Position numbers and translations under genes: made by a program | The notes under the pieces: generated by a model | Databases searched by the model: none | Seen by the model: the letters and a program-made list of their open reading frames with translations, nothing else | What the model was told of the DNA's origin: nothing | IMG/VR virus record: IMGVR_UViG_3300006116_000009 | DNA from: an uncultured virus (IMG/VR IMGVR_UViG_3300006116_000009) | Taxonomy: Duplodnaviria > Heunggongvirae > Uroviricota > Caudoviricetes | Length of the DNA stretch: 64,000 bases | Direction: 5' to 3' (one strand) | In this document: positions 3,194 through 60,772 of the stretch, one piece after another | How positions within the stretch are numbered: the first letter of the stretch is position 1 | Layout: every line of letters starts with the position of its first letter

Positions 3194-4291
3194 GTGTCCA
3201 ACGCCAAAATACTCATAGGTAATGCCAACGTCAGGCTAAAGGAATTGCCCGACCAAAGCGTTCGTACCGTAATCACCTCACCGCCTTATTACGGGCTACG
3301 AGACTATGGAACAGGCGATTGGCAAGGTGGTGACCCTGACTGTACCCACCAGCGTGACAACAAGCGTGGCAAGTCCACCGAGACAGGTCACGCCAACGAA
3401 ATGCTTACCGTAGGCGACGCTATTTACAAAACCGTATGCCCACGTTGCGGTGCTATCCGTGAAGATGAACAAATGGGCTTGGAAGAAACACCAGAAGAAT
3501 TTGTCGAAGCCCTTGTTGTTTTATTCCGTGAAATACGCCGTGTGCTTACTGATGATGGAACAGTCTGGCTAAACATTGGTGATTCCTACGCTGGGTCGGG
3601 CAAAGGCAGAAATGGCGACGGCACGGTAAATGTTGACCCCGAAAGCAAGCAAGCCACAAGTCAGGGAACGTTGGAAGGCACGTTAGTGAAATCGGGCGTA
3701 GATTTGCCAGCCAAGAACATGATTGGTATTCCGTGGCGTTTGGCATTTGCCCTACAAGATGATGGCTGGATTTTGCGTCAGGACATTATCTGGGCAAAAC
3801 CAAATCCAATGCCCGAATCGGTTAGTGACCGTTGTACAAAATCGCACGAATACATCTTCCTGCTTTCTAAATCACCACGTTATTACTTTGACAACGAAGC
3901 AATCAAGGAACCAGCCCAAGATTGGGGAACCCGTGACCGCACCAACGGCAAGTACCACAACGAAGGTACGGGTCTAACACCACACAGCGGTCTAACCAAG
4001 TCCTACGAAACACGGAACAAGCGTGACGTATGGACTGTTTCCACCAAGCCGTACAAGGGGGCGCACTTTGCCACCTATCCCGAAGATTTGATTACCCCGT
4101 GTGTGTTGGCAGGTTCAGCAGAAGGCGATACCGTCCTTGACCCCTTTACAGGGTCTGGTACAACGGCGGTAGTTGCGCTTCGGTATGGTAGAAACTTTGT
4201 GGGGACAGAATTGAACCCCGAATACGCCAAACTTGCAGAAAGCAGGATTACTAGTGACGCACCCCTCTTCAACACAGTCGAACTTGGATAA
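3194..4291 (+). CDS. DNA amino-methyltransferase (N4-C/N6-A, beta class)
   Basis: TSPPY (motif IV) near the N-terminus, HFATYP, and VLDPFTGSGTT (motif I) near the C-terminus. Confidence 0.92.
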   Translation: MSNAKILIGNANVRLKELPDQSVRTVITSPPYYGLRDYGTGDWQGGDPDCTHQRDNKRGKSTETGHANEMLTVGDAIYKTVCPRCGAIREDEQMGLEETPEEFVEALVVLFREIRRVLTDDGTVWLNIGDSYAGSGKGRNGDGTVNVDPESKQATSQGTLEGTLVKSGVDLPAKNMIGIPWRLAFALQDDGWILRQDIIWAKPNPMPESVSDRCTKSHEYIFLLSKSPRYYFDNEAIKEPAQDWGTRDRTNGKYHNEGTGLTPHSGLTKSYETRNKRDVWTVSTKPYKGAHFATYPEDLITPCVLAGSAEGDTVLDPFTGSGTTAVVALRYGRNFVGTELNPEYAKLAESRITSDAPLFNTVELG

Positions 4292-4301
4292 GCACAAGCA
4301 G

Positions 4302-4517
4302 ATGAACTTTGCCGAATGGCTTACATACGGGCAATCCCTTGGATACGTTAGTGAAATCGTGTGTGACACGCACAATGGATACGAAATGTCGCCCACCGAA
4401 GTAGAACTTGTTGATGCTGGAAATGACATCTGTGTCCACGTCGTCCGTGTTGGTAACATTCAGGAGTGGGAAGCCGAGGCGCAATCCTATAAAGGAATGG
4501 ACGAACTGTGCGTTTAG
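4302..4517 (+). CDS. Hypothetical protein
   Basis: ATG 10 nt after the MTase stop; CDTH...CVH residues. Confidence 0.6.
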   Translation: MNFAEWLTYGQSLGYVSEIVCDTHNGYEMSPTEVELVDAGNDICVHVVRVGNIQEWEAEAQSYKGMDELCV

Positions 4518-4667
4518 TAGACATTTGGAACGGCAACGGGTATTACCTAAAGACCTATCAGGGAAATGACGGGTACTACCACACCGTCATCACCACGCCG
4601 GATTTCACTACCCAAGCCGAAGCGTCTAACTTCCAAACCAAGTTCATAGATTTCACTAAGGGTAATC

Positions 4668-4958
4668 GTGCGTAAAAGCGAAATCAAAGAACAACTCGAG
4701 TCGGCAAAAAGTAATTTGTCTACCGCCAACAGGTCGCTCGAGTTGTTAGTCAAGCAACACGACACAATGGCATCACATAACAACGAACTTCACCACACCA
4801 TTGAGGAACTGAAGAACGAACTGCGTCTTTACAACTGGGCTTTCAGCATTGCTTCGGGGCGACTAATGGCGTATTCCAAAACGGAAGATGACCCAGCAGT
4901 TTTCACCGAACGGTTGCTGGCAGAAGCACGTCAAGAACTAGGGATTACCCAACAGTAA
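4668..4958 (+). CDS. Hypothetical coiled-coil protein
   Basis: Heptad pattern of L/I residues; operon-like position. Confidence 0.6.
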   Translation: MRKSEIKEQLESAKSNLSTANRSLELLVKQHDTMASHNNELHHTIEELKNELRLYNWAFSIASGRLMAYSKTEDDPAVFTERLLAEARQELGITQQ

Positions 4959-5072
4959 GCCAAAACCCCCACCTTGCGGTAGGGGTCGGGCTGAAAGTTC
5001 TTGGCGTTGTGTCCAATCGCCCCCAAGACTGTCGGGCGAAGTCTATCATCGTTTAGTTTGGAAATCAACACC

Positions 5073-5110
5073 AAAAAAGCAAAGTCCCCCAGCCATTTGC
5101 TGAGGGACTT
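5073..5110 (-). terminator. Intrinsic terminator of the ncRNA
   Basis: Minus strand AAGTCCCTCAGC-AAATG-GCTGGGGGACTT followed by TGCTTTTTT. Confidence 0.75.
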
Positions 5111-5452
5111 CACCACTGCCGGACTACTTATCGGACTTCCCGTTTCCTAGGGCTAACCGCTTCGCTTCCAACTTCCCGACCTGCTTGACACCCCTACGAG
5201 TGTCACCGTCAAGGCTTGCTACACCACTTGCGCAGTGCAACTTTCAGTTTTATGGTGTCGCCTGTCGTGGGCGGGGCGGAAAGAACCACGAACCGAACCC
5301 AAATCCGAATTCGTGCAGTCTTGGTGATTTTTTGGGAACCACCAAGTTTCCACTCCCCCCACGACTTGCGACGTAAAGGCTTTACTACACCCCCAGCCCC
5401 CGACGACCACGTACTTGTGGGGTCTTTACATCAGGCGACTGCGGTTACTACA
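5073..5452 (-). ncRNA. Putative structured non-coding RNA (~380 nt), class unknown
   Basis: Own TTGACA-N17-TATAGT promoter, own U-tract terminator, many nested inverted repeats, no credible ORF. Confidence 0.7.
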
Positions 5453-5458
5453 TAAACA

Positions 5459-5487
5459 ACTATACAGGGGTATAGTCACATTGTCAA
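5459..5487 (-). promoter_or_regulatory. Consensus sigma70 promoter for the ncRNA
   Basis: Minus strand TTGACA (5487-5482), 17-nt spacer, TATAGT (5464-5459). Confidence 0.8.
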
Positions 5488-5539
5488 GTTATTTAGCAAA
5501 GTTTTTTAGAAATCTTTTTCCCCTTGTATTTATTAGGGT

Positions 5540-5569
5540 TTGGCACTACAAACTAAACCACGTTATACT
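5540..5569 (+). promoter_or_regulatory. Leaderless-type promoter for the LexA-like gene
   Basis: TTGGCA-N18-TATACT, ATG 8 nt downstream, no SD sequence. Confidence 0.6.
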
Positions 5570-5577
5570 ATTTACCT

Positions 5578-5952
5578 ATGCCATACGAATTACCAGATGC
5601 CGAAATGAACGCCCTAGATTTCATCAGGTGGCATTGGAAAGAACTAAATTGCGCACCGTCCTATCGGGCGATTATGCAAGCCGTAGGGTACAAATCAACG
5701 TCGTCCGTCCACGTGATGCTGATGCGCCTGAAGCAAAAAGGGCTAATCACCCTTGGACCGAAAAACAAGAATGTTCAGTTAGTGAATACCGGCGACCCAC
5801 GAACGTGTGACCACGATTGGCGTGTTACCAAAATTGCGAACCCGTTGTTAATCCAATGTTCGTTCTGCAAGCACAAAACGGAAGTCGAATACGACCCACC
5901 AGCCGATGCCCCACTTACCAAGTTGCTAAAGTACACAGGGAATGTCGGCTAA
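5578..5952 (+). CDS. LexA-type winged-HTH DNA-binding protein with C-terminal Zn-ribbon-like segment
   Basis: LDFIR...PSYRAIMQAVGYKSTSSVHVMLMRLKQKGLI matches the LexA N-domain; no S24 peptidase domain; CDH...CSFC. Confidence 0.8.
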   Translation: MPYELPDAEMNALDFIRWHWKELNCAPSYRAIMQAVGYKSTSSVHVMLMRLKQKGLITLGPKNKNVQLVNTGDPRTCDHDWRVTKIANPLLIQCSFCKHKTEVEYDPPADAPLTKLLKYTGNVG

Positions 5953-6008
5953 ACCCTAATAACTGTGGTACACTATAGACAGAATTGCCGAACAAGGAAA
6001 TGGGTACA

Positions 6009-6284
6009 ATGACGACCATCACGCTTGAGGAACTTGTGAACAAGATTCACACAGCCCTTGTACAAGACGCATACGACACCAACGACATCACCGCTTTGAT
6101 GGACACGGCACTAAACCAAAAGGCAACTATCGAACACCTTGCGTCAGAAAACGCACGTTTGACAAATGCCGTGGTTGATGCTGGCGACCACATCACCAAG
6201 TTGGAAACAAAGATTGACAGTCTGGGCGCACTACAGACCGCACACCACCTTGTTCAGTACGCAGAAGAGTCTGATGTCAATTAG
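6009..6284 (+). CDS. Hypothetical coiled-coil protein
   Basis: AAGGA SD sequence; helical heptads. Confidence 0.65.
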   Translation: MTTITLEELVNKIHTALVQDAYDTNDITALMDTALNQKATIEHLASENARLTNAVVDAGDHITKLETKIDSLGALQTAHHLVQYAEESDVN

Positions 6285-6543
6285 GCTTGATTGGTCGGAA
6301 CCTGACGATTTTGGGCAGTCCGAAGCAAAGTACGGCCCATTCACCTTTATTGCTTGGCAAGGTAAGGAATACGGCGAACTACGTATGATTCGTCGTGACA
6401 ACGTTGGTGGGATAATCGCCCCCATTAGCGACCTTTCCCTTTACGCTAGGGATATTGCCCAAGCAAAGTACTTGGCGGAAAATATGTCTATCGCCCTATT
6501 GCCCGTAGTGGAATACAATACTTTTACCCCACTTTATGAATAG
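6274..6543 (+). CDS. Hypothetical protein
   Basis: Start overlaps the 3' end of the upstream gene. Confidence 0.55.
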   Translation: MSIRLDWSEPDDFGQSEAKYGPFTFIAWQGKEYGELRMIRRDNVGGIIAPISDLSLYARDIAQAKYLAENMSIALLPVVEYNTFTPLYE

Positions 6544-6563
6544 CGTCTGCTAGGGTTGTAATC

Positions 6564-7379
6564 GTGTCGGCAACCCCCGTTTACCTTGGCGAAAAGCCAT
6601 ACGGCGTATCACCAAGTCGGGTAGGGCAAATCGAAAATTGCCCACGGCAGTATCAGTACTCCACCATCGAACGTTTGCCAGAACGAAAGAAGATGGCAAC
6701 GTATCGTGGAACTGTCTTTCACGAAATCCTCGAGGAGATGTTTCTGCGCACCGTGGAAACACCACAGGAACGCACCATTGAACTGACAATGGCAATTATG
6801 CGTGAACTGATGCCAACGCTAATGACCGCTGAAATCGTTGCCGAAATGGAATTAGACGATATTGGCGCACAGACTTTTACCGCTGACGTAGCCAAGTACA
6901 TTCGCAACTACTTCAAGATGGAAGACCCTACGACAATCACCACTGAGGGTATCGAAATCAAGTTGGATACCGATATGGGTGGCTGGTTGCTTCGTGGCAT
7001 CCTAGACCGCTTAGACCGACGTGCTGATGGCGCACTAATCATTGTGGACTACAAGACCGGCAAGGTGCCACAGGATAAGTACAAGGCTTCGGCAATCCTT
7101 CCGGCAAAAATCTACGCCTACCTTTGCGAACGGGAACTAGGCGAACGCCCTGTCGAAATCCAACTGCACTACGTTCAGTTTGGAAAGACCCTAACTATTG
7201 AAGTGACTGACGCTGACGTTATCTACGCTGAAAAGCGTGTTCGTGAAGCGTGGTCAAAGATTGAAAACTGGTACAACGCCGGATACTTTCCACCAATCGC
7301 CAACAATCTGTGCGATAAGTGGTGTTCGTTCAAAAACATTTGCCCGTTATTTACAACGGTTTCTGACGACCCTTTCTAA
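6564..7379 (+). CDS. RecB/Cas4-like PD-(D/E)XK exonuclease with Fe-S cysteines
   Basis: SPS...CPRQY, G..FH, RGILDRLD, IVDYKTG, C-terminal CDKWCSFKNIC. Confidence 0.88.
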   Translation: MSATPVYLGEKPYGVSPSRVGQIENCPRQYQYSTIERLPERKKMATYRGTVFHEILEEMFLRTVETPQERTIELTMAIMRELMPTLMTAEIVAEMELDDIGAQTFTADVAKYIRNYFKMEDPTTITTEGIEIKLDTDMGGWLLRGILDRLDRRADGALIIVDYKTGKVPQDKYKASAILPAKIYAYLCERELGERPVEIQLHYVQFGKTLTIEVTDADVIYAEKRVREAWSKIENWYNAGYFPPIANNLCDKWCSFKNICPLFTTVSDDPF

Positions 7380-7488
7380 GTCGGTTCCACCCCATCAGGT
7401 GTTTGACACTTGACATTTCCAAAACACCATTTACGCTTTCTTTGTCAAGACCATTGGGTTACCTACTGGTCAAGCAGAAAGTGAATTT

Positions 7489-12057: not shown

Positions 12058-15000
12058 ATGGCACGTACACCGTACACACTGAATAGTTATGTAGGCGAAC
12101 CATACGCCGCTGTACTAACAACGTCTATTGGGTCTGCCGACACTACTATTTCACTAACCTTCAACGAAGGTATTGGCTCGTGGACGGGATTGGGTGTTGA
12201 CGGTGGTTTCTACCTTGCCATTGACTACAACATGGTCAGCGAAGAACACATTTACGTTCCGGCAGGGTCATACGATTGGGCAAGTTCTACCGTTGTACTA
12301 AATGATGTTGTTCGTGGATACGACAATGGTGGAAATGGCGTTCCTCACGATGCAGGTGTAGCGGTTGTTCCAATTATCACCGCAACAGATACACGGGAAG
12401 CCAACTACGTGGTATCCCAAACCGTTGGTCAAATCCAAAACTACGGCGACCTTCTTATCGGGGCTAGTGAAAACACCCTCGAGGCGTTGCCAATCGGAAG
12501 CCCTAATCAAGTATTAGGTGTTAGCCCAGACGGTTCTACATTGGAATACCTGACTGTCTACGGTCAGCAGGGGCCACAGGGAAACGATGGTGCGCAAGGT
12601 AGTGCTGGAAGCCAAGGAAACGCTGGGGCGCAAGGTGCGCAAGGCGTACAAGGCATTCAAGGTTCTATCGGTGTCCAAGGAGTACAGGGTAATCAAGGGG
12701 TACAGGGAAACCAAGGAACTACCGGATTTCAAGGCGTACAAGGTGTTCAGGGTAGTGCTGGAAACAGCGGTTCGCAGGGTACACAGGGAGTACAGGGAAC
12801 GACTGGTAGCCAAGGTAATCAAGGCACTACAGGGGCGCAAGGCAATCAAGGTTCAGCAGGCAATCAGGGTAATCAAGGGACGCAAGGCTCGCAAGGTAAT
12901 CAGGGTACACAGGGTACTGCTGGAACCAACGGGTCACAGGGTGTTCAGGGTGTTCAGGGTGCCACCGGCGTACAGGGTACACAAGGTTTTCAGGGAAATC
13001 AAGGTGACCAAGGGGCGCAGGGTTACCAAGGCGTAACCGGAACAACTGGTAATCAGGGTTTTCAGGGCTTGCAGGGAAACCAAGGTTTCACCGGCGTACA
13101 AGGAAATCAAGGTTTCACTGGTGCGCAGGGGGTACAGGGTGTTCAGGGAAACACTGGTTCACAGGGTACTCAAGGAAATCAGGGTTTTCAGGGAACACAG
13201 GGTATACAAGGAACGCAAGGTGTACAGGGTGTACAAGGTGAAAAAAGTGCCGCCAACGCCCACGCAGCCGTAAGTGCCGTTTCCACCAACAACTTGCCAG
13301 CGACTTACGCAAACGGAAGCGCAGACGCAGAAAACGGAACGGGTGTTGGGGCAACCATTACCGCAAATGCCAATGGCGCACTCGGGGCTATTGACGGTGT
13401 AGCAATGTCCGTTGGTAGCCGTGTTCTTTTCACTGCACGAACCAACGCCATTGAAAATGGCATTTACACGGTAACAAGTGTTGGCTCACCAGGTACCAAG
13501 TACGTCTTTACCCGTGCCACCGACTACAACAACCACGTCACGGGTCAGGTAGAAAGTGGCGACTATGTGTTTTCTACTGGCGGAACACTTTACGCAGGAA
13601 CAACGTGGGTTCAATACAATGATGGTTCCAACCCTGACGGAACAATCCGCATTGGAACAGACCCCATCAATTTCACGCAAGCAGGCGGTGTTGGTGCGCA
13701 AGGCCCACAGGGTGCCACTGGTTCGCAGGGCGCTGGCGGTGTTATCAGCAACTACGGTTCGTTTTACTCGACGGTAACCCAGAACGCCACTACTGGTGGA
13801 GCCGCAATCCGTTTTGACACTACCAACGTCGCCAATGGCGTGACCCTTGTTAGCAATGGAACATACCTAACTCGTATTACTTTCCCCACAACGGGAACGT
13901 ACATGATTGACTTCTCTGGTCAGTTAGCGGTCACGGGTGGAGGAAACCGCACCGCCAACTTCTGGCTAGTTAAAAACGGAACTACCGCTGTGGCAACCGC
14001 CTACGACAATGTTGTTCAGAACAACTCCCCAGCACTTACCTCGTGGACGTACCAAGTAAATGCCACGGCTGGCGACTACTACGAACTGTTTTGGAACGGT
14101 GATACAACTAACCTTCAACTTCAGTTCAGCGCCGCTTCCGCCCCCGTGCCTTCCGTTCCCTCGGCGTTTGTTCGTGTCACTCAAGTCACCTATCAGGGCG
14201 CACAGGGAAATCAAGGGTATCAGGGTACACAAGGGGTTCAAGGGGTACAGGGTTATCAGGGAACCCAAGGAACTCAGGGAAATCAGGGCTATCAAGGCTA
14301 TCAAGGTATTCAGGGGCCATCAAATGGCACTGCTGGTGGCGACCTTAGCGGAAACTACCCTAACCCCACCGTTGCCAAAATACAAGGGGTTGCGGTTTCC
14401 AATGTTGCCCCCACGAGCAACCAAGTGCTTCGCTACAACTCGTCCACCAATGCGTGGACACCGGCAACGTCTACGCTTCTTATTCCAACCACCACCAAGA
14501 CGGCAAACTATTCGGCAATTCCAAATGATTATGTCGTTTGCAATCCCACGTCGGCTGGCATCACCATTTCACTACCGTCGGCTCCGGCAAACGGTTCAGT
14601 AGTTTCGGTATGCAACCTTTCTACCGCTACACAAACTGTCACAGTAACTCCAAGTGGTTCAGACGTTATTTCGGGCGGTAGTTCCACCCTTGCCTACGGG
14701 TTTTTCAACTCCCGTTCGTTTGTCTACGACGCAAATAACACCACATGGTTGCTCCAAGTAGACGAGTGGGGAACTACGGCTGGTGGCGACCTTACGGGGT
14801 CGTATCCAAATCCCACTGTTGGTGGAATACAAGGCTTCCCCGTAGCCAATACAACGCCTACAAACAATCAAGTGTTGCGCTACAGCACTACTACGAACCA
14901 ATGGTCGCCAGCAACCTCGACGCTTCTTGTTCCAACGGTCACTACCAACGTCAGTTACAATGCTTTACCAAATGACTACGTAGTATGCAACCCAACAACT

Positions 15001-17643
15001 ACGGGTATTACGATTTCACTACCCAGCGCACCGAGCAACGGGTCAGTTGTATCGGTTGCTGCCCTGTCTACGGCTACCTACCAGACAGTAATCAGCGCAT
15101 CAGGGTCAGACACCATTCAGGGTGGGTCAATTACTCTTGCTTCTGGTCTGTACAGTTCGGTGTCATTTGTCTACGACAAAAATGCCAATACGTGGCTGGT
15201 GCAATCACAAAAAGGAAATCAAGGCAATCAAGGTTTTCAGGGTTATCAGGGATACCAAGGTAATAACGGCACAAACGGTGCGCAGGGAAATCAGGGATAC
15301 CAAGGCGTACAGTCATCAGTAGCCGTAGGCACCGTTTCCACCACTACGTATGGCAACCCAGCATTAGTTACTAATACGGGTACTGCTGGTGCCGCAACTT
15401 TGAATTTCACCATTCCCCAAGGGCCACAGGGTGTTGCCGGAACAAATGGAACCAATGGTTCGCAAGGTAATCAAGGGTATCAAGGTGTGCAAGCATCGGT
15501 GGCTGTTGGTACGGTTTCTACCACATCATACGGAAACCCAGCCGTTGTCACAGATACAGGAACCGCAGGCGCAGGAGTACTAAATTTCACCTTGCCACAA
15601 GGGCCGCAGGGTGTCACTGGCACCGCCGGAACGCAAGGAAATCAGGGTTATCAGGGGGCTTCCTACGCCACCACATCTGTCACGTCGCTAACCATCGCCA
15701 CAGGTACGCAGACATTCACCGTAGGCACCAACCTTGCCTACACGGTTGGTCAGACAGTTCGCATATTCAACAGCCCCAACTACATGAGTGGCACTATCAC
15801 CGCTTACAACGCCAGCACGGGTGCTATGACGGTAAACATAACCGTCACGTCAGGTTCGGGAACGTTTGCTTCGTGGACGGTAAACCTAGACGGTTTGCAA
15901 GGCGTACAAGGGTCTACGGGTTCGCAAGGAAACCAAGGCTATCAGGGATATCAAGGCTATCAAGGTGCCGGTGTCACAGGTATTTCACCAGGCGCAATTA
16001 TCTACGGCAACGCATCGGGCAACTGGGTAGACACATCAACAGGTTCGGGCGGTGGTGCTGGTTCGGCTGGTCAGTTGCTTACATCATACGGAAACATTGC
16101 TAATGGTGGCCCCGAATGGGCTTCGTATGCAATTCACCGACCTGTCTCCGCAGTTACCACTACTAACGTTTCCGGTACGTATGTAGTTGGCGCAACGCTA
16201 ACAGTAGCCAGTGCCACCTATGCGTCAAACTCGGCTACGTATACCTACATCAATACAGGTGTCTTCGCAACTGCCGGTTCCCTTGTAACCATCACGGGTA
16301 TGTCCCCGACGCTACTAAATGGTACGTATGTAATTACTAGTGCCACCGCATCAACTTTCACCACATATTCAACCAGTGCTTCTAGTGGTAGTTCGACAAA
16401 CCCAGGTGTTGCCCAAATTGGAAACCTAACCCTTGACTATCCCCTTGCAACAGATATGTTCTTCGGGCCAGCCGGTACTTTTACTACTGATGGCTGTTCT
16501 GCTTCCCTCAACACACGATACTTGCTTACAGCACAAACTACCGCTACGCAAAATGGTATTTGGGTTGCCACACAGGTGTACACGGGTACGTCATCAACAG
16601 TCCCCGCTTCTAACGCATCGTGGTCTGCTGGAACCATTACGTTCGGCAATGCAGGAAACGTATTTGGAAACCTTGGTCTTTCTGTTGGTCAATACATTTC
16701 AGTAACTGGTGCCACGGTTACGGGATACAACGGCGTTTGGAAAATCGCCACCATATCGTCAGGAACCATAACTACCGCAGGTTTGGTGGCTAATCCTGGA
16801 ACGGCTAGTGGAACATTTGGAAACGTCAATGCGCCCGTAGTTTTCACCCGTGATAATGATGCCGACACAACAACCAAAATCTCATCTGCATTGGTTCAAT
16901 CACAACTTGGAACAACTTATGGCGGTTCTTCTTGGCAAATACCATTTTCCAGCGGTACTTTTGGAACAAGCAACATTTCGGCGTATCAAATCCTAAATAC
17001 CAACTCGTCGCTTTCTGCTACCAATAAATCATTCGGAAGTACTGGTTTTTACCTTTCTGGTAGTAGTGGAACTGTAAATGTTCTTGCAACAGGTTCTGTT
17101 GGTGGAACCCTGTACCTACCCACATTTGCTAGTGGTACAGATACCCTTGTTTCACTAGCCGTTTCCGCTACCCTTACAAACAAAACCCTTACGTCGCCTG
17201 TTCTAAACACACCTGTTGTAACAGGGCCATACGAAACCGTGGGCATTAGTGCAACAGCACTTAGTGGTTCAGTTGCGGCTTCTATTGCCATTGCCACCAA
17301 CTCGGTCTACTACTACACAGCAAACCCCACAGCAACTTGGGCATTGAACATTACAAACGCCCCTACGGTTACGGGGCAATCAGCAACGGTAGCCATCCTT
17401 GTAAACAATGGTGCAACAGCGTATCTACCAAGCAACATTACGGTCAATACCGTTCAGGCTGGTGCTTCATCTTCTGCATTGCCCGTGCAGGGAGCCACAA
17501 ACAACAACATCACGTCGTACTACCAAAATGCAACAGCGTGGTCAGCAGATGCTTCGACCCTTGATGTCTACACTATTACTGTTATCTGTACCAATGGGGC
17601 TACCCCTGCGTACACCTTACTTCTAGGATTGACCAAGTTCTAA
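12058..17643 (+). CDS. Collagen-like fibre protein (1861 aa)
   Basis: Long Gly-X-Gln triplet tracts separated by Thr/Ser-rich beta domains; R.L...T...NGIY...RATD fibre modules; duplicated AGGDL.G.YPNPTV module. Confidence 0.8.
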   Translation: MARTPYTLNSYVGEPYAAVLTTSIGSADTTISLTFNEGIGSWTGLGVDGGFYLAIDYNMVSEEHIYVPAGSYDWASSTVVLNDVVRGYDNGGNGVPHDAGVAVVPIITATDTREANYVVSQTVGQIQNYGDLLIGASENTLEALPIGSPNQVLGVSPDGSTLEYLTVYGQQGPQGNDGAQGSAGSQGNAGAQGAQGVQGIQGSIGVQGVQGNQGVQGNQGTTGFQGVQGVQGSAGNSGSQGTQGVQGTTGSQGNQGTTGAQGNQGSAGNQGNQGTQGSQGNQGTQGTAGTNGSQGVQGVQGATGVQGTQGFQGNQGDQGAQGYQGVTGTTGNQGFQGLQGNQGFTGVQGNQGFTGAQGVQGVQGNTGSQGTQGNQGFQGTQGIQGTQGVQGVQGEKSAANAHAAVSAVSTNNLPATYANGSADAENGTGVGATITANANGALGAIDGVAMSVGSRVLFTARTNAIENGIYTVTSVGSPGTKYVFTRATDYNNHVTGQVESGDYVFSTGGTLYAGTTWVQYNDGSNPDGTIRIGTDPINFTQAGGVGAQGPQGATGSQGAGGVISNYGSFYSTVTQNATTGGAAIRFDTTNVANGVTLVSNGTYLTRITFPTTGTYMIDFSGQLAVTGGGNRTANFWLVKNGTTAVATAYDNVVQNNSPALTSWTYQVNATAGDYYELFWNGDTTNLQLQFSAASAPVPSVPSAFVRVTQVTYQGAQGNQGYQGTQGVQGVQGYQGTQGTQGNQGYQGYQGIQGPSNGTAGGDLSGNYPNPTVAKIQGVAVSNVAPTSNQVLRYNSSTNAWTPATSTLLIPTTTKTANYSAIPNDYVVCNPTSAGITISLPSAPANGSVVSVCNLSTATQTVTVTPSGSDVISGGSSTLAYGFFNSRSFVYDANNTTWLLQVDEWGTTAGGDLTGSYPNPTVGGIQGFPVANTTPTNNQVLRYSTTTNQWSPATSTLLVPTVTTNVSYNALPNDYVVCNPTTTGITISLPSAPSNGSVVSVAALSTATYQTVISASGSDTIQGGSITLASGLYSSVSFVYDKNANTWLVQSQKGNQGNQGFQGYQGYQGNNGTNGAQGNQGYQGVQSSVAVGTVSTTTYGNPALVTNTGTAGAATLNFTIPQGPQGVAGTNGTNGSQGNQGYQGVQASVAVGTVSTTSYGNPAVVTDTGTAGAGVLNFTLPQGPQGVTGTAGTQGNQGYQGASYATTSVTSLTIATGTQTFTVGTNLAYTVGQTVRIFNSPNYMSGTITAYNASTGAMTVNITVTSGSGTFASWTVNLDGLQGVQGSTGSQGNQGYQGYQGYQGAGVTGISPGAIIYGNASGNWVDTSTGSGGGAGSAGQLLTSYGNIANGGPEWASYAIHRPVSAVTTTNVSGTYVVGATLTVASATYASNSATYTYINTGVFATAGSLVTITGMSPTLLNGTYVITSATASTFTTYSTSASSGSSTNPGVAQIGNLTLDYPLATDMFFGPAGTFTTDGCSASLNTRYLLTAQTTATQNGIWVATQVYTGTSSTVPASNASWSAGTITFGNAGNVFGNLGLSVGQYISVTGATVTGYNGVWKIATISSGTITTAGLVANPGTASGTFGNVNAPVVFTRDNDADTTTKISSALVQSQLGTTYGGSSWQIPFSSGTFGTSNISAYQILNTNSSLSATNKSFGSTGFYLSGSSGTVNVLATGSVGGTLYLPTFASGTDTLVSLAVSATLTNKTLTSPVLNTPVVTGPYETVGISATALSGSVAASIAIATNSVYYYTANPTATWALNITNAPTVTGQSATVAILVNNGATAYLPSNITVNTVQAGASSSALPVQGATNNNITSYYQNATAWSADASTLDVYTITVICTNGATPAYTLLLGLTKF
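12561..13239 (+). repeat. Collagen-like (Gly-X-Gln)n coding repeat
   Basis: Uninterrupted 9-nt periodic GGN-NNN-CAR-rich triplets; shorter tracts recur up to ~15970. Confidence 0.9.
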
Positions 17644-30724: not shown

Positions 30725-33700
30725 ATGAAGCCCATTGTTGCTAAGCCCACCACGACCATAGAAACAAACGGAACTATAACCGTCAATGGTGGTTCCGACG
30801 TTGCTTCGGCGCTCAACGATGTCACGTACTTTTCCACCGCTACGGTTGCCGACTCGCAAGGGAACGTGTATTACGGAAATGCCGAACACGTAGACCAGTT
30901 TTTCACCAACTTTACGCAAAGTACACAGCCAAACGTAGGTACACGAAGCCTCCATACCACCGTAGGCAACCCCAACGATGGTTCTAGCGGTTCTTTCGCT
31001 GCTACGGGTGGTGACACCTTTGTTTACGTTCAGTCGGTTGAAAAGACCACTGAGGGGCAAATGGTGGCAATTTTGGAAGGGCAACTGCCTAACCAATCCA
31101 TCTTTTCACCACAGGCAACTTCGCCGGACACGCCATTTAGTGAATGGCTCGAGGTAGGTGCGACGGGTCTTGTACCGGCAACTTCTAACAAGCAAACTAT
31201 TGCCCCCCAAGACTTCCCCCTTTCAGCACTTATGTTGCCACAGGGAACCGGCAACATTTCGTCGGTCATGTCACCGAACCTGTCCTTCTACAACCCACCG
31301 GCAAATAAGGCTGTAGGACAGTTCTTTTCCACCAACATCAGTGGCTCGTACATTGAAGGAAACGCACCGCTTCCGTCCACTATTGGAAACGGCACCGTTG
31401 CGCCAATGTACGTGTCGGTTTCAGCAGACCAGCAATCCCTTGCGAATTTGCGTTCAATTTTGCCCGATGCAACTGCTTCGGTTTTTGTCCCCCAGCGCAT
31501 CAACACCATTGTTGTAGGCAACACGCAAACACAAGTTTCTGTTTCACAAACTATTGGTTTTTCAGTGGGGCAAACATTGACCGTTTCGTTTGAATTGGTC
31601 ACTGCCGACAAGCCAGTGCCATCTGGTTGGAATTGCGGAAAAATAACCTCAATTGACACCGTAAACAATGTCATTTATACCGACCTAAACATTTTGTCTG
31701 CCTACAATGCCGAATACATTACGGGCGTAGACGAACGCAACTTTATTCTTCCCAAAAACAATGTTGGTTTTAGCGCACAAACATCAAACAACACGACATA
31801 CTGCCTAGTCCCCTATCCCACCACGGGCTTGATTCCTGGTATGACGGTTGCTGACATTACCAACCCGTCAAAACTTTCGCCCACTACTTTTGTAGAATCA
31901 GTGGGAGGCAGTTTTTTCTACCTTTCATCGCCAACAATAGGTTCAATTAATCACGATGAATTAGTCGCCACTGGTACTTCTATTTCAGCAAACCTTTCGT
32001 GGTCAAGTGGCACTACTGACCTTGTAGGTACGGTGCCTTACGGTACTCCCTATGTGGGAATGTACGTTATTGGAAACGGAATTCCAGCAGGCTCGACCAT
32101 TACTTCTATTTCTGGTTCCGGCACACTTACCATTGTCATTAGCAATACAACTACCGATGCCGGTTATGGTGGTGAAATTAGTAGTTGTGTGTACGATTTA
32201 ACACCCAGCGGTGGCTATTACGGCACCTTTGCTACTACTGCACTTATTTCTAACGGTTCTGTACTTATGTCGCCCGTTTCACAAGTGCAGGGAAGCCTCC
32301 TTTCTGGTATGAACGTCGGTCACGATTTTGACGTAGTGCCACTTCCATATGGCACCCACATCAACAACCCACACGGCGTTGAGGATGCTTTTGTAAGCGG
32401 TCAGTCCGTCACCTTTGCAGGTACATTTGCCAGCGGTACAACCGTTATCAACGTCAGTTCCACCACCCTTAGCAATGGATACAGTTCTTCGGGTATGTAT
32501 GGATTGTCCATTGGTCAAGTGCTGAAATCAAATTCTTATTTCCCTCACGGAACTTCCATTATTGGAATGGACACCACTGCCGGAACAATTACAGTTAGCC
32601 ACCAGTGGACGGGTGCAAGTAGCGGAACTGCCAATTTCACCACTGAACCAATGTATGCGCAAACATTTTCATTGGTTGGAACTACCACGTCGGGAAGTTC
32701 CGTTGTTTCCATTGCTGACACCAACCCGTCCCAATCTTCTGCTTTCTATGGGCTGATGCTTGGAACGGTTATTTCTACAGGGCAACTAAAGAACGCCAAG
32801 TACACCGTTGTGGGAATTAACACCACAAACGGAACGATTACCCTTTCTAAAACTTGGTCAGACACGGCTGGCAAACAAACGTTATATGGATACAACGGCT
32901 ACGTGTATCTTTCATCACCTGCGACAAACAGTGGCAAATATGTATTTACGGTGAACTACCAAATTAGTACTGCGTATGCTTTTGGCGCAACCATTGAAGG
33001 TGTCACCACCCGTCTAAACATGGACGGTGGCGTTTCTTACGACTGTAAGTTCTTTTCAGCACCCTATGTAAGCATTGACTCGTACAACAATCCAAACTAC
33101 GGACAAATGTTGATTTTGCCCGTGAAGCCAATAAGCGTTTCATCCTCGCCCATTGCAAACGCCATCGACGTAGCAACTATTGGAACAAACAACAATTTTG
33201 TTTCGGGTTCTGAAAAGTACGCCAACGTGTTCCAATCGTCTACTTTTGTAGCAACTTTTACTAGCGGAAGCACGTCGGTCACCGGCGTAACGTCAGTAAA
33301 GGGAACTATCCGTGAAGGAAGCCAACTGTTTGTCAAGGGCGGTTCTACCGGAAACTTGGTCAAGGCTGGTACGCAAACAGGAATTCTTACCGTTGCTTCG
33401 GTTTCTTCTGACGGAACTGCCCTTACCCTTGCTGAAAACTACGAACAGGCTGGTGGCGGAAGTTCCACACTTCAGATAGTTGCGACACCCCCCATTCAAG
33501 TTGCCGACCTAAAGGGAATTTCTATCGGTCAGGCATACGCTAGCGATTCCACCACCATTGCGGTTAGCGGAACATACTACGCCCCAGCCGTCGCTGGTGT
33601 TGAATTTGCGGTTGGAAGCGACTTTTACGAAACATACCAAGTTGTTGATTACCCTGTGTATTTCACGGGGGACACGTCATTCAATTCGGCGGTTATCACC

Positions 33701-36700
33701 AACATACCTAGTACGCAAGGTTTGTTGGTTGGCATGGTAGTTACGGGTGCAAACCTGCCAAATGGTACGGTAATCCAATCCATCGACACGGCAAATCAAA
33801 TTACCTTGTCGGCTTTGGCAACGTCGTCAAGTACCCTTACGACATTCAGCACAAATTACTACAACGTCTACCTTGGCGAATACGTCGCCGGAACGACTGA
33901 TGTATTCAACGGCTACCAAATCTCCCAACCAGACTCGTACAACACTCGTGTTGTGCTTGGCGAAGCGGTGGTGGGTGGTTCTTTTTACGGAACGTCGGCA
34001 ATCTACACAATGTCGGTTGATTCCACCACCAATTTGTCGGTTGCGCCACAAAAAAATTGGTATGGTGCCATTTTCACTAACCAAAATGGCATTGTCAATG
34101 TAAGCGAAAGTGCCATTTCGGACATCAAGATTGGTGATGCAGTTGTTTTGCCTTATTCGGTTGTTGGCAATAACCCCGAAAGCCTGAACGGATACACCAA
34201 CGCTTTTGTTTCGTCAATTGTTTCCGGTGGCATTGTCAATGGTGAAAACGTCTACACGGTTTTTCTTGAGGACAATAACGGTCAGCCTTTTCCCATTAGT
34301 TATGCCCCTGCTGACGGCACAATCTATGGGTCAATCAACGGCATTTTTAGCAACTATACGCCACAATACTTATACAACCAAAGTCGCCTTGTTTGTTTGG
34401 AAATCAACTCCATAACCAACAAGGCTTTGATGTGGGCTGTGGATAAGCCTTTGCCTGTTGGTGGAAAGTTTGTGAATACCACAACGTATTCCAACGGAAA
34501 CAACCAAAACGCCATCTACCCAATCGTGGATACCGTCCCAATTGCATCTGCTTTCACTACGCCTACTTTAGATAAGTTCGGCGCAGGCGTAATCGCCTTG
34601 CGTGGCAACATCAACGGCAACCACAGCACTGGAACAGCAGTGGCTTCTTACGACGAAGGCAATCGTTATTTTGGTTCCACCACCGTAGGAGACTTGGAAG
34701 TCCTTTCCCCCACCAACATTGGTTCGCTTTTTGGTACGACCCTGTACAACGCAGTTTCCAAGGGTTCCACCACCGCTACCCTTGCGCCGCTTAGCAACAC
34801 CGTCAATGGCACGTACACCAACCTTGACCAATACGGCAATCTTGCCACACAAGGGTTCCCTATCACCACGGGTACGTCGCTAAAGAATTGCACCGTCTAT
34901 TCGGGTAACACGTACATTACCGTCACGTGGAACAGCGACCCCACCCTTGGAAGTCGCCCCTCCGTCGGTTGGCTTGTGACGGGCGCAGGAATTCCAAAGA
35001 ACACGTTTGTCACGTATGTTCGTGGTACTGAAATCGGTATTTCTAACGCTGCCCTCAATACGGCGGTGGACACAGCAACGTTCACGTTTGTTCCCGAAGT
35101 ATTTGGTGTAATGGTTGTTGGAACCGGCGACAACCAAGAAAGCGTTGTCTTTAGCCTGAACTACGCCTTCACCTCCGGTCAGTCTGTTGGCAACACAACG
35201 TCGCCAGCCGTTTTCCAATTGGCAAGCGGTCAATCGTTTGTTTATCCACACGCTGCTGGGGAACCTGTATTTGTTCCAAACATCAAGACCAACGGATTTG
35301 CTAACTTCCACGCTAAGGAAGCCCCAATCTTGGGCGGTGCTGATAACGCCGACGGCACCGAAGGTCTAAGCCATGTCGTTGCCGACAACACGAACGGTCA
35401 AGTAGCCACCACGTCTACTTTCACCATTGGGCTTACCCCCGTGATGATTCCCGTGGGCAATAACAACAACCCAACAACTTCAGCAACATTGGCACAAGGA
35501 CACAGTGCTGGGGAAACGTCAATTGTTATCACCACCCCCACGGGTTTCCCCGACGCTTACAAAAACCCCTACCCCACGACCAACTTCTTGCCACCGGAAC
35601 TTGGTCGCCTTGCCGGATACACGTCCACGGGAACCACAGTTATTTCAGTAGTCGTCACCGACGGTCCAATTCCAAACAGTTCATTTGCTATCCGCATCGG
35701 TACGGACAACTACTACGTGCAGTCCGCCACGCCTTCGGTTCTTGTTGATTCACTAAACGCCTACGACTTTACGCTTCTCAGCCCAACCACGTTTTTTTAC
35801 TACGACGGCACGCCTGTTCACCTTGTGTACCTCGACACGAACTCGACGTACAACAAACTGTACGTTCCAAAGTTTTACCTAAATCGCAGTTTCACGGGTG
35901 TTCTTACGGCAGGTAGCGCCGTCATTACAAGTGTGGTAGGAAGCCAACCCACAACTGGTATTGGTGCCGTTTATACCACCACGGGCGGTACGGGGGGAAC
36001 CAATACCCTTACGTCTTTCTCCTCGCCACCCCAAGTTGGTATGAAGATTTACGGCGATGCTGCCGTTCAGGAAAACACCGTCATTTTGTCGTATGACAAT
36101 GGCACCGATACTGCTGTTCTTTCCAAACCGTTTACCCAAAACACCGCCTCGGGCAGTTTGTGGGCCGCTTATGAGGTGCAGGGCGAGGGCATCCCTGCCG
36201 GTGCGTTTATTTATGAGGCACCTGGCGACGGAACCATCACCCTAAAGTATTTCACTACTTCATACGGAAGCAGCGCACAGTTGGCTCCGGCGGCAATTAG
36301 CGGAACGTACACGGTGAACCTCAACGTCGGTATGCCCGTATCGGTTGGCAACACGCCCCCAAGTGGCTTCACCACGCTGTACACAACGCCAATTATGGCA
36401 ACTATTTTCAGCGGAACGGTTATCTCATTGTCGTCGCCAAGTGGCACGGACTACGTGACCGTTTCAGCAGATGCAACCGTAGGGTCTACCAGTATTTCTA
36501 TACATCCCTACACGCCCACTTATGCCCACGATTGCGCCTCGGTATCGAATGGAATTTTGACGTATTTCACCACTGGCGTTCTGGGCGCAGGAACTATTTG
36601 TTCGTATGGACTTTCCGCCGAATTAGTCAAGGGTGACCCCATTGTTCTGAACAACGGAAACGGAACAACCATAGCCCTTTCGGTTGCGCAAACCCCAAGT

Positions 36701-57220: not shown

Positions 57221-57286
57221 TTTTGCCGGTTATAGCAATTTCGCTATACTTGACCTAGCAACTAAACTAGGGTATAATAGTGATGT

Positions 57287-60200: not shown

Positions 60201-60772
60201 CCGCCGAACAGTTGGTTGCTATTTCCACCTTGAAGCAGTTAGCCGCCAAAGCCAAAATGGAAGCCGCCCGTGAATGGATTGACAACTTTGTAGATGGCGA
60301 TAAGAAGTTGGTGGTGTTTGGTTGGCACCGTTCAGTCGTAAATGAAATTGCCGACAACTTTAGCAACGGCGTGAAAATTCAAGGTGGGCTAACCCCCGAA
60401 AAGCGTCAAGAAGCCGTGGACGCATTCCAAAACGACGACAAACAAAAAGTGATTGCTTGCAATATCAAAGCCGCTGGGGTTGGACTTACGCTAACTGCCG
60501 CTAGTGATGTGTTGTTCCTCGAGCAAGGGTGGACACCAAGTGACATGGAACAAGCAGTAGACCGTTGCCACCGTATCGGTCAGCAAGACAGCGTGACTGG
60601 TTGGCTTATGTTGTGCGCTAACACCATTGACGAAGACATTGCCGTACTGATTGACAACAAGCGTTCTATCGTAGACCGTGCCATTGACGGGTCAAATGAT
60701 GACGAAGAAGAAGCACGTTCTATTGTGGGCGACTTGTTGGTAAGTCTGGCAGAACGTGGACTAAATCGGTAA
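57287..60772 (+). CDS. SNF2/SMARCAL1(HARP)-like helicase/ATPase containing an intein
   Basis: Repeated F.Y.....IR......W.....W HARP-like domains; DEMGLGK/T; DESH; LSGTP; GVGLTLT; QAVDRCHRIGQ. Confidence 0.9.
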   Translation: MPSYPLLANAVRALANQDDGAVRRDGVGFNGGDTKFGNRLAQVPDEAWSPEMALEAWQMLGKYREQLQRIGIDFSKVPEPIVSEKSKAIARGVKAVDIRNNHVVVFIPYGEPLYPKVPLTAVWNRDIKGWVVAKEKYGAVLGWAEKNKVPVSDRAKEFLGKVPPIENAKWNGEVVLEKGQLVIRFDYNVEILDSVRSLSQRHYNAEDKTWSTPKENVMAVKELAAKHQLFLTEDVKRLHGEEIKPCPKIGVLHDKFAITFNYQSNMVSEIRQMPGSVWSPDERVWVIPVESVQEVRDFVTKHEVEISKDAELLFIEADTVAEIIESSQAHDADIDIKGFGDEQYKLFPFQRAGVAYAMQAMGYEHHEGEWKQNTPTTGGVLVGDEMGLGKAQVHGTKVLTPKGWTNIENLSVGDEVIGSNGHATKVTGVFPRGEMDVFTVGFNDGSTLDVSGDHLWAVQSVQNGYRKPDEWQVRDTNYLAENLIDGAGNSKWKIPLVQPVYFEGNEPLPIDPYLLGVLLGDGCLGGASISVTSADEFIIEEVKKRIPEGMGMTKHGEYDYRLVSPRAGLPNELGRTLSKLGLRLGSGEKFIPEMYLRSTPENRLALLRGLMDTDGFAGKDGTNEFVSISKDLADGVTELVQSLGGVVRRSTKQPTKNGADYGQLAYRVNIKLMDCPFFMPRKANDWVKPTKYPPNRNIKSITPNGRGQVTCIAVEAQDHLYVTEHYLVTHNTPQGLAIVKAANAFPAVIVVPASLKLNWEREAKRWIKGVKVAVLGGTTGEVPEAEIYVINYDVLTHWVDKFPHIKALVLDESHYIKNGSAQRSKACVRLSDKVVEGGIRVCLSGTPIVNQPTEIITQLRVINRLDEFGGATKFRNTYGSASGRSLAALNRKLRSTCYVRRRKADVLTELPPKRWSQVFVEGNAKVMKEYREAEADIVNYLADLAREIALESGATDKEAQNEAWRKALKARAAEQLVAISTLKQLAAKAKMEAAREWIDNFVDGDKKLVVFGWHRSVVNEIADNFSNGVKIQGGLTPEKRQEAVDAFQNDDKQKVIACNIKAAGVGLTLTAASDVLFLEQGWTPSDMEQAVDRCHRIGQQDSVTGWLMLCANTIDEDIAVLIDNKRSIVDRAIDGSNDDEEEARSIVGDLLVSLAERGLNR
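58457..59479 (+). mobile_element. Class 3 intein with LAGLIDADG homing endonuclease (341 aa)
   Basis: Inserted in Walker A (GLGK|AQVHGT...VTHN|T); starts with Ala; W (HLW), C (VTCIAV), T (VTHN) signature; LLGVLLGDG and LLRGLMDTDG motifs. Confidence 0.9.

What the first reader, a model, noticed from the sequence alone, without database searches (positions are those of the whole stretch)
5073..5487. Stand-alone ~380-nt highly structured RNA gene of unknown class
Seen: a near-perfect promoter (TTGACA-N17-TATAGT) fires leftward into a region with no credible ORF that ends in a U-tract terminator. Nested complementary pairs (plus-strand coordinates): TAACCGC 5154-5160/5441-5447 closing the domain; GTCGCCTG 5257-5264/5432-5439; GTAAAG 5373-5378/5424-5429; TCGTGGG 5265-5271/5358-5364 extended by GGAAA 5278-5282/5347-5351; CACGAA 5287-5292/5310-5315; CTTGGTG 5320-5326/5340-5346; TGACAC 5186-5191/5200-5205. 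ACTTCCCG is also directly repeated (5135, 5171). I do not see tRNA, tmRNA, RNase P or SRP hallmarks. It is divergent from the LexA-like gene, so the two may be co-regulated.
Basis: partly seen in the sequence, partly recalled or inferred. Interest (0 to 1): 0.8.

Follow-up and report, generated by a model that had tools for sequence, protein, structure and literature searches.

The report
New modular structured RNA in lake phages
This stretch is a real, self-contained gene for a roughly 380-base folded RNA that codes for no protein; it belongs to a small, uncatalogued RNA family carried by freshwater phages, and its function is still unknown.

Summary
On the minus strand, 5487-5073 is a transcription unit. 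It has a TTGACA-N17-TATAGT promoter (11 of 12 consensus bases), about 380 nt with no conserved ORF, and a 16-bp intrinsic terminator. The RNA folds far better than shuffles (z -6.5). It matches none of the 4227 Rfam families and is not a tRNA or tmRNA.

I found 10 distinct relatives on 8 viral and 6 metagenome contigs, and none with two motif patterns over 185,579 prokaryote species genomes. All 10 keep a promoter and a terminator.

The family is modular. A universal 3' module of about 130 nt (window 5247-5116) has covarying helices around invariant junction bases: 93% of cells paired against 27-48% in slid controls, and 10 pairs changed on both sides. The 5' and central domains are swapped, from about 20 to 350 nt. 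Window 5382-5249 is one such variable insert.

The cassette sits at different intergenic sites in related phages and is missing from the window's site in others, like a moron.

Function is unknown. My best guess is a trans-acting recognition or assembly platform, analogous to GOLLD and ROOL but not a member of either.

The parts
5459..5520 (-). Promoter: -35 TTGACA 5487-5482, 17-nt spacer, -10 TATAGT 5464-5459, preceded by an A/T-rich, UP-like stretch (5488-5520)
   Evidence: 11 of 12 consensus bases. A TTGAC(A/T), 17-18 nt, TAnnnT-type promoter stands at the same place in all 10 distinct relatives (sequences). That the A/T-rich stretch acts as an UP element is inference.
5383..5455 (-). 5' domain (subtype A): predicted start near 5453-5451, then a hairpin CUGAUG/CGUCGG enclosing the asymmetric loop UAAAGACC and the CCAC-hexaloop-GUGG tip
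   Evidence: It is 90-95% conserved in L005, L012 and L018. In L027 the stem reads GCUUG/CGAGC with the loop and tip kept (read directly). The start site is inferred from its spacing to the -10 box and has not been measured.
5249..5382 (-). Variable central domain (swappable module), locally well paired in the MFE
   Evidence: It is replaced by about 350 nt in L005 and by about 20 nt in L012, L011 and L013. A contig of run X13 joins 5248 to 5382 with 23 other letters between. Runs X10 and X15 have loose ends at the same two places, and X15's letters are different again.
5116..5247 (-). Universal 3' module. H2 5241-5218 (GNRA-capped hairpin). P_out 5214-5208 with 5180-5175. H3 5205-5198 with 5193-5186. 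Pa 5172-5167 with 5123-5118. Mini-hairpin Pb 5165-5159. Pc 5158-5133. Invariant junction strand GAUAAGUAG 5132-5124.
   Evidence: Alignment A4 of 9 distinct sequences. Pair counts: 93.1% of cells paired against 26.9-48.1% when partners are slid; 10 of 37 pairs change on both sides against 2-3 when slid. Model R1 finds this module once in the window (106 bits) and in every relative. Pb and Pc never vary, so they are inferred from the sequence alone.
5073..5114 (-). Intrinsic terminator: 16-pair stem, 5-nt loop, UUUUUU
   Evidence: Every relative has a terminator hairpin here with a different stem sequence. The only weak Rfam match, rnk_pseudo at E 1.9, draws most of its score from this terminator-type hairpin and U-tract.
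4956..5072 (.). Adjacent conserved non-coding flank, not part of the RNA cassette. It contains a second minus-strand terminator-like hairpin at about 4990-4960.
   Evidence: It is 92.5% identical in L005. Part of it follows the homologue of the 96-aa gene in L033, where no RNA gene was found.

Best explanation
Window 5487-5073 (minus strand) is an autonomous gene for a structured non-coding RNA of about 380 nt. It is transcribed by the host sigma-70-type polymerase from a near-consensus promoter and ended by an intrinsic terminator.

It belongs to a previously uncatalogued, modular RNA family carried as a moron-like cassette by a group of uncultivated freshwater phages. Their capsid proteins are closest to those of actinobacterial phages.

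The functional core is the universal 3' module of about 130 nt. It comprises a GNRA-capped hairpin, a helix enclosing a variable hairpin, and a three-way junction whose unpaired bases are invariant. The 5' and central domains are exchangeable peripheral modules.

Inferred, not shown: the RNA acts in trans. The invariant junction would serve as a specific recognition surface for a host or phage partner, or for copies of itself, as GOLLD and ROOL do. The peripheral domains would tune stability or assembly.

My odds: real ncRNA gene 0.9; new family 0.85; accessory mobile cassette 0.7; trans-acting recognition or assembly platform 0.4.
For: - Transcription signals: promoter and terminator are. Both are kept in 10 of 10 distinct relatives although the terminator stems differ in sequence.
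- Structure: z -6.47 for the window RNA, -3.65 for the minimal form and -17.3 for the long form (only 20 shuffles).
- Covariation in the 3' module: 93.1% of 332 cells are paired. None of 500 shuffles reaches the observed pairing or covariation score. Ten pairs change on both sides, against 2-3 in slid controls.
- Read directly, P_out is CCU(U)GAC/GUCGGG, CCCAAG/CUUGGG, CCUAGA/UCUAGG or CCUGAA/UUCAGG in different members. The H2 loop is GCAA, GUAA or GAAA.
- Strand: G-U is the commonest pair at 8 of 37 pairs, so the fold exists only on this strand.
- Subtype B alone gives 115 predicted pairs, 13 of them with compensatory change.
- Modularity.
- Mobility: there are at least four different gene contexts, and the RNA is antisense to both neighbours in three of them. 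L036 and L007 have an empty site at the window's position.
- No known family.
- Not coding.
- Capsid relatives are Arthrobacter and Microbacterium phages at about 50% identity.
Against: - No transcript has been seen. None of the 24 listed runs is RNA, so expression, ends and abundance are inferred from sequence signals only.
- The family is small: 10 distinct sequences in about 5 lineages, 3 of them nearly identical. I derived the structure from these same sequences, which by itself favours it over the slid controls (caveat stated).
- Pb, Pc and the junction never vary, so their pairing is unproven.
- RNAalifold on subtype B prefers a strand-swapped alternative to Pa.
- Nothing identifies a partner. 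No protein gene is consistently adjacent, and no target complementarity above chance was found in the window (best 13 nt, E 0.29).
- Absence from related phages is uncertain because those records are 9-74% complete.
- The Fremin et al. 2023 catalogue of 10,006 candidate viral RNAs might already contain this family. Its alignment archives could not be read.
Confidence: 0.55

Rival explanations
1. It is a ligand- or signal-sensing RNA. The invariant three-way junction would be an aptamer that controls the terminator 3 nt downstream, so that read-through sends antisense transcription into the neighbouring phage genes. This would resemble riboswitch-controlled antisense RNAs.
For: - The pattern of invariant junction bases with covarying helices is what aptamers show.
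- The module abuts the terminator directly (Pa ends at 5118, the terminator stem begins at 5114).
- The cassette is antisense to both neighbours in 3 contexts.
- Several relatives have weak, interrupted U-tracts.
- A second minus-strand terminator-like hairpin follows in the window.
Against: - I saw no conserved alternative (anti-terminator) pairing. The terminator stems differ freely between variants while the module stays the same.
- The GAAGUCC repeat shared by Pc and the terminator arm in the window is lost in L012.
- A structured 5' part of 75-400 nt upstream of an aptamer is unusual.
- In L016 the next gene on the same strand has its own promoter.
- No Rfam riboswitch matched.
Confidence: 0.12
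2. It is a diverged or miniature member of an already described RNA class (GOLLD, ROOL, RNase P RNA, tmRNA, 6S, SRP, Y RNA or pRNA) that the models fail to recognise.
For: - Like GOLLD, it is phage-borne, lake-derived, and has a universal 3' region with a variable 5' region (passages of 10.1101/2024.12.08.627333 read).
- CCGAUAAGUAGU resembles the 5S rRNA loop-E strand. That comparison is from memory and was not tested.
Against: - cmscan of all 4227 Rfam 15 families found nothing at gathering score in the 64-kb window.
- In the permissive E-value mode, nothing relevant appeared at E up to 10 in 4900-5650 or in 4 related loci, nor at E up to 5 in 3 further loci.
- The ROOL model found 0 matches in 4 records, but its control rang nowhere either.
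- ARAGORN found no tRNA or tmRNA.
- The size, 270-600 nt, is below GOLLD's (over 800 nt).
Confidence: 0.07
3. The conserved structure acts at the DNA level or in cis, for example as a replication origin, a single-strand initiation site, a packaging site, or merely a transcriptional insulator between gene blocks. It would not be a functional free RNA.
For: - It lies in the early, DNA-metabolism part of the genome, near methylase, nuclease and DNA-binding genes.
- It is intergenic and strongly hairpinned.
Against: - G-U is the commonest pair at 8 of 37 pairs, which would be A-C on the other strand.
- A consensus promoter and a terminator bracket exactly the conserved part in 10 of 10 members.
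- The cassette changes place and neighbours between related phages and is missing from the window's site in L036 and L007. That is unlike an origin or a pac site.
Confidence: 0.05
4. It encodes one or more small proteins, and the RNA structure is incidental.
For: - ORFs of 79, 63 and 63 aa overlap the region.
- A 49-aa plus-strand ORF (5001-5150) is also open in L005.
- The predicted 5' end reads AUG-UAG.
Against: - All 3 sense frames have stops inside the universal module in 9 of 9 sequences.
- The central module is exchanged by lengths that are not multiples of three (133 nt against 23 nt).
- The 49-aa ORF differs at 7 of 49 residues between the window and L005, within DNA that is 92.5% identical over 4956-5075 (my count), which does not suggest purifying selection. 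It is absent in the L012 context.
- tblastx finds no protein-level similarity between the window and L027 in the 5' domain.
Confidence: 0.03

Closest known systems
[quoted passage not shown]
   Same: Both are large structured non-coding RNAs of unknown function, encoded by phages and prophages and found in lake metagenomes. [quoted passage not shown] No partner protein is known for them.
   Different: There is no match to any Rfam family, and ROOL was also tested directly. The size is 270-600 nt rather than about 580 to over 800 nt. It is not next to tRNA islands: ARAGORN found tRNAs in 0 of 9 loci, and Rfam found one cut tRNA at the edge of L016. Cage formation is untested.
Phage morons (independent promoter-gene-terminator units inserted between conserved phage genes)
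   Same: It has its own sigma-70-type promoter and terminator. It is inserted between genes that are adjacent in relatives (L036, L007), at different sites in related phages, and often in the opposite orientation to the flanking genes.
   Different: The cargo is a structured RNA, not a protein gene. A lysogenic context is not shown: no integrase was seen among the window proteins scanned.
phi29-type packaging RNA (pRNA)
   Same: It is a phage-encoded, independently transcribed structured RNA made of an essential domain plus a dispensable one (pRNA domain structure recalled from memory). In the window and in L027 it lies within a few kb of head genes.
   Different: No Rfam pRNA match. The distribution among related phages is sporadic and the position varies, which argues against an essential packaging part. 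The phage type is also different.

Membership tests
GOLLD RNA (Rfam) | Scores against the Rfam covariance model | tested here: not met
   cmscan of all 4227 families: 0 matches at gathering score in the window. No GOLLD match at E up to 10 in 4900-5650 or in 4 related loci, nor at E up to 5 in 3 further loci. A direct search under an accession I recalled wrongly hit an unrelated snoRNA model and says nothing.
GOLLD RNA (Rfam) | Universally conserved 3' region with a variable 5' region | tested here: met
   The 3' module is shared by all 10 members, and the 5' and central parts differ by subtype. This is a resemblance in layout, not homology.
GOLLD / ROOL | Located near tRNA islands in phages or prophages | tested here: not met
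   0 tRNAs in the 64-kb window. ARAGORN found tRNAs in 0 of 9 related loci. Rfam found one cut tRNA at the edge of L016.
GOLLD / ROOL | Self-assembly into a symmetric RNA-only cage | not testable with these tools
   This needs native gels, SEC-MALS or cryo-EM.
ROOL RNA (RF03087) | Scores against the Rfam covariance model | tested here: not met
   0 of 4 RNA-bearing records match at E up to 10. The control genomes also gave nothing, so the all-family cmscan results carry the weight.
tRNA / tmRNA / RNase P / SRP / 6S | Recognised by ARAGORN or by the Rfam models | tested here: not met
Riboswitch or cis-regulatory leader | Lies in the 5' untranslated region of the gene it controls, on the same strand | tested here: not met
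   In the window, L012 and L027 the next genes are on the other strand. In L016 the downstream gene on the same strand has its own promoter.
Phage moron | Own promoter and terminator; present or absent between otherwise adjacent conserved genes | tested here: met
   Expression from a prophage was not tested.
Guide or template RNAs of retroelements and RNA-guided nucleases (retron, DGR, TnpB/IscB omega RNA) | Adjacent reverse transcriptase or nuclease gene | tested here: not met
   No reverse transcriptase, TnpB or IscB family was found among 58 window proteins scanned with Pfam. Neighbours differ between loci.

The most novel reading that the evidence does not exclude
The invariant three-way-junction module is the core of a new functional RNA class. 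It could be a small self-assembling phage RNA that builds a GOLLD/ROOL-like multimer at a third of their size, or a new ribozyme or aptamer. The plug-in peripheral domains are exchanged rapidly within lake phage populations, possibly in an arms race with the host.
Probability: 0.18. Interest if true: 0.85.

Novelty: new variant of a known kind. Interest (0 to 1): 0.55.

Why it matters
Large, elaborately folded RNAs with no protein partner are rare. The phage-borne ones (GOLLD, ROOL) have recently been shown to build RNA-only cages, yet their function remains unknown.

A third, unrelated and much smaller phage family with the same layout, a fixed 3' core and exchangeable outer domains, would be a compact and tractable model. 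The minimal natural form is about 270 nt, and nature has already made the domain-deletion series: inserts of about 20, 130 and 350 nt.

It would also add to the evidence that phages trade RNA genes as morons. Other notes of this scan report similar orphan phage RNA genes, so the kind of thing is not a surprise. The particular family and its modularity are what is new.

Tried and rejected
- Expression: the look-up of sequencing runs listed 24 runs holding the stretch, and no RNA holder was listed. No expression evidence could be obtained either way.
- DNA contigs of 4 runs were laid on the region. They show only that variant forms co-occur.
- blastn ('distant' mode) of the intergenic region against 50,697 phage records found no match.
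- Model R1 on three cultured actinophage genomes, the nearest capsid relatives, found nothing significant (best E 0.5, 11.8 bits).
- Model R1 found no new match in the 12 related-phage loci around the PD-(D/E)XK nuclease gene that were not already known to carry the RNA, nor in L007. The only match among that set, L030, is the already known L005 contig.
- Model R1 found no match in the full records G002, G003, G005, G006 and G009, which are 9-74% complete.
- Two motif patterns over genome contigs (185,579 species) gave 0 matches.
- The last viral pattern scan found no new member.
- One metagenome hit, L017, was a chance match inside a coding region and was dropped.
- L019 contains Ns and is nearly identical to L012, so it was left out of alignment A4.
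- Antisense-target idea: the best complementarity or identity of the RNA to the rest of the window was 13 nt at E 0.29, which is chance level.
- CsrA-type sponge idea: the GGA in the Pc loop is lost (AGA) in L012 and L016.
- Association with the LexA-like gene, with tRNAs, or with a reverse transcriptase was rejected.
- Literature: three full-text searches. Four motif strings of the family occur in 0 papers.
- Fremin et al. 2023 (PMC10690425): I saw the abstract and outline. The contig numbers were not found in the readable supplement tables. The alignment archives (mmc4, mmc5) and other large files could not be read, so prior listing there is not excluded.
- The search of earlier findings by place and by sequence returned nothing.
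- One search used a wrongly recalled Rfam accession and is void.

Full report
**What is in the sequence.** The window is a phage genome segment. Nearly all long ORFs from 24 to 47359 are on the plus strand, and they include head scaffold and major head protein genes. Between the stop of a 96-aa gene (4958) and the start of a LexA-DNA-binding-domain gene (5578) lie 620 non-coding bases.

On the minus strand there is a promoter, TTGACA (5487-5482), 17 nt, TATAGT (5464-5459), matching 11 of 12 consensus bases. There is also an intrinsic terminator at 5114-5078 with a 16-pair stem followed by six T. The region 4000-7000 holds no more promoter-like or terminator-like sites than shuffles do (3 against 3.1 +/- 1.8; 4 against 3.3 +/- 1.7). 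The case therefore rests on the quality, placement and conservation of this pair, not on counts.

The 383-nt RNA between them folds to -167.7 kcal/mol against -128.8 +/- 6.0 for 100 shuffles (z -6.47, none as low). ARAGORN finds no tRNA or tmRNA in the window. Rfam 15 (4227 families) gives no match at gathering score over the 64 kb. In the permissive mode it gives only a terminator-driven rnk_pseudo match (18.4 bits against a cut-off of 55, E 1.9).

**Relatives.**
- No phage record in GenBank matches at the DNA level.
- Exact-pattern scans and one protein-anchored scan of IMG/VR found the RNA on 8 viral contigs.
- The single metagenome scan found it on 6 contigs plus one chance hit, L017, inside a coding region, which I dropped.
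- A covariance model of the 3' module (R1) found one further, more diverged copy in a 108-kb related phage record (L043, 72.5 bits).
- Two patterns over one genome for each of 185,579 prokaryote species found nothing.
- In all there are 10 distinct sequences: the window, L005, L012, L018, L019 and L027 (subtype A); L015, L043 and L047 (subtype B); L016 (subtype C).
- Every one has a TTGAC(A/T), 17-18 nt, TAnnnT promoter preceded by A/T-rich DNA. Every one also has a terminator hairpin whose stem sequence differs between lineages (read).
- None of the 7 related loci searched matches a relevant Rfam family, at E up to 10 for four of them and E up to 5 for three.

**Modular build.** The window and L005 are about 94% identical over the first 75 nt and the last 200 nt of the RNA. 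The part between, window 5382-5249 (about 130 nt), is replaced in L005 by about 350 nt and in L011, L012 and L013 by about 20 nt.

Contigs of public freshwater runs show the same breakpoints. One contig joins 5248 to 5382 with 23 other letters between. Two other runs have loose ends at exactly these places, one of them with yet other letters.

Pieces of L005's long insert recur in the 5' parts of subtypes B and C (read). Only the 3' module of about 130 nt is common to all.

The minimal form still folds better than shuffles (z -3.65), and so does the long form (z -17.3 with 20 shuffles).

**Structure of the universal module (window 5247-5116).** From the alignment of 9 distinct sequences (A4; L019 left out) I read the following parts:
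- H2: a hairpin always capped by a GNRA loop (GCAA, GUAA or GAAA).
- P_out: a helix enclosing H3, which carries an extra domain in L015 and L016.
- Pa: a helix closing a three-way junction. The junction contains a GC-closed mini-hairpin (loop GAA, GAGA or GAAG) and an irregular hairpin Pc.
- The invariant strands GCGGUUAGCC and GGGAA(G/A)UCCGAUAAGUAG.

On this structure 93.1% of 332 cells form standard pairs, against 26.9-48.1% when the 3' partners are slid by 1-3 columns. Ten of 37 pairs change on both sides (24 cells), against 2-3 pairs in slid controls. None of 500 shuffles reaches the observed pairing or covariation score.

P_out is the clearest case: CCU(U)GAC/GUCGGG, CCCAAG/CUUGGG, CCUAGA/UCUAGG and CCUGAA/UUCAGG. 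Pa switches A-U to G-C in 4 of 9 sequences.

G-U is the commonest pair at 8 of 37 positions, so the fold exists only on the minus strand of the window.

Caveats:
- The sample is small and related.
- I derived the structure from the same sequences.
- Pb, Pc and the junction never vary.
- RNAalifold on subtype B alone (115 pairs, 13 with compensatory change) prefers a strand-swapped pairing of the 5' hairpin with Pa.

- TGACAC 5186-5191/5200-5205 is H3 and stands.
- The four local helices inside 5265-5364 are in the MFE but lie in the exchangeable module, so comparison cannot test them.
- GTCGCCTG and GTAAAG pair the 5' domain with that module, so they cannot exist in the minimal form. There the 5' domain folds on itself as CUGAUG/CGUCGG around a conserved UAAAGACC loop and a CCAC/GUGG tip. 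In L027 this stem reads GCUUG/CGAGC.
- The 'closing' TAACCGC/GCGGTTA pair occurs in 5 of 10 members, all of the window's clade and never varied. It is absent from the other 5, and it competes with invariant module parts.

**Not coding, not a cis element.**
- All three sense frames carry stops inside the universal module in 9 of 9 sequences.
- Module exchanges are not multiples of three.
- The plus-strand 49-aa ORF shared with L005 differs at 7 of 49 residues (my count).
- tblastx shows no protein-level conservation between the window and L027 in the 5' domain.
- The next genes are on the other strand in the window, L012 and L027, so it is not a leader.
- No complementarity to the rest of the window exceeds chance.

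**A mobile cassette.**
- In the window and L005 the RNA lies between the 96-aa gene and the LexA-like gene.
- In the L012 type it lies two genes downstream of the LexA-like gene.
- In L027 it lies between homologues of the window's 812-aa gene and its 179-aa gene.
- In the 108-kb record it is about 58 kb from the nuclease gene.
- L036 and L007 have the window's flanking genes nearly abutting, with no RNA.
- The only R1 match among the nuclease-anchored loci, L030, is the already known L005 contig. The other 12 such loci and L007 gave none, and neither did five further, incomplete records.
- This is the behaviour of a moron. Co-regulation with the LexA-like gene is therefore not a family trait.
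- No reverse transcriptase, RNA-guided nuclease or integrase family appears among 58 window proteins scanned.
- No protein gene is a constant neighbour.

**Host.** The major head protein is about 50% identical to those of Arthrobacter and Microbacterium phages. The runs that hold the DNA are labelled freshwater metagenomes. A freshwater actinobacterial host is an inference. Three cultured relatives lack the RNA.

**How it most likely works.** Shown: it is an independent, strongly signalled transcription unit for a folded RNA with a conserved core and exchangeable periphery.

Inferred: it acts in trans. Its invariant junction, stiffened by a GNRA hairpin that probably docks elsewhere in the molecule, would be a specific recognition surface for a protein, a small molecule or further copies of itself.

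The nearest analogues are GOLLD and ROOL. They are phage-borne and of unknown function, GOLLD has a universal 3' and a variable 5' region, and both form RNA-only cages (passages read). Membership in either is rejected by the model searches, by size and by the lack of tRNA neighbours.

A riboswitch-like control of the abutting terminator, gating antisense read-through, is the most interesting rival. I saw no conserved anti-terminator.

**Novelty.** No Rfam family matches, and 0 papers in the held library contain four motif strings of the family. The large viral candidate-RNA catalogue of Fremin et al. 2023 could only be partly checked. Notes of this scan list other orphan phage RNA genes of the same general kind but no look-alike of this one. 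I rate it as a new family of a known kind of thing.

Noticed in passing
window 5453-5448 (minus strand); same place in L005, L012, L018, L019, L015, L047, L027: The predicted first bases of the RNA read AUG-UAG, 5 nt after the -10 box. AUG-UAG or AUG-UAA stands there in 8 of 10 distinct members, but not in L043 or L016. In L047 against L015 the change UAG to UAA keeps a stop while breaking a hairpin pair. It may be a leaderless start-stop, or just a constraint on the initially transcribed sequence.
   Followed up: partly
window 4956-5072: A conserved non-coding flank of about 100 nt lies downstream of the 96-aa gene, with a second minus-strand terminator-like hairpin (GNRA loop, then UUUU) at about 4990-4960. 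Part of it also follows the gene's homologue in L033, which has no RNA gene there. A contig at depth 902 in run X8 matches 4956-5055 with 14 differences, so a similar element sits in a very abundant entity of that lake.
   Followed up: partly
window 57287-60772 (+): The SNF2-family helicase ORF (1161 aa) has a LAGLIDADG_3 match at residues 603-656, inside a SNF2 domain match stretched over residues 377-942. This is probably an intein with a homing-endonuclease domain.
   Followed up: no
window 30725-43972 (+) and 12058-17643 (+): A 4415-aa ORF with only a weak beta-propeller-type Pfam match, and an 1861-aa ORF with five collagen triple-helix repeat stretches plus a StcE-type beta-sandwich. Both are presumably giant virion or fibre proteins.
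   Followed up: no
window, both strands: The pattern CTTGAC, 17-19 nt, TAnnnT occurs 7 times against 1.24 +/- 1.21 expected. Examples are upstream of the SNF2 gene (57249-57278) and at 7409-7437. This suggests a set of host-type promoters of which the RNA's is the best.
   Followed up: partly
L047 500-800 and 1280-1350; L015 700-860: The DNA flanking the subtype-B RNA gene is also ORF-poor and hairpin-rich, for example GCCCUCCC...GGGAGGGC just after the terminator. It is identical in layout in two contigs and may hold further non-coding elements.
   Followed up: no
window 5578-5952 (+): The 'LexA-like' protein has only the LexA DNA-binding winged helix (residues 7-61), followed by a Cys/His-rich tail (CDHDW...CSFCKHK). 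It has no peptidase S24 domain, so it is not a self-cleaving LexA/CI-type repressor.
   Followed up: no
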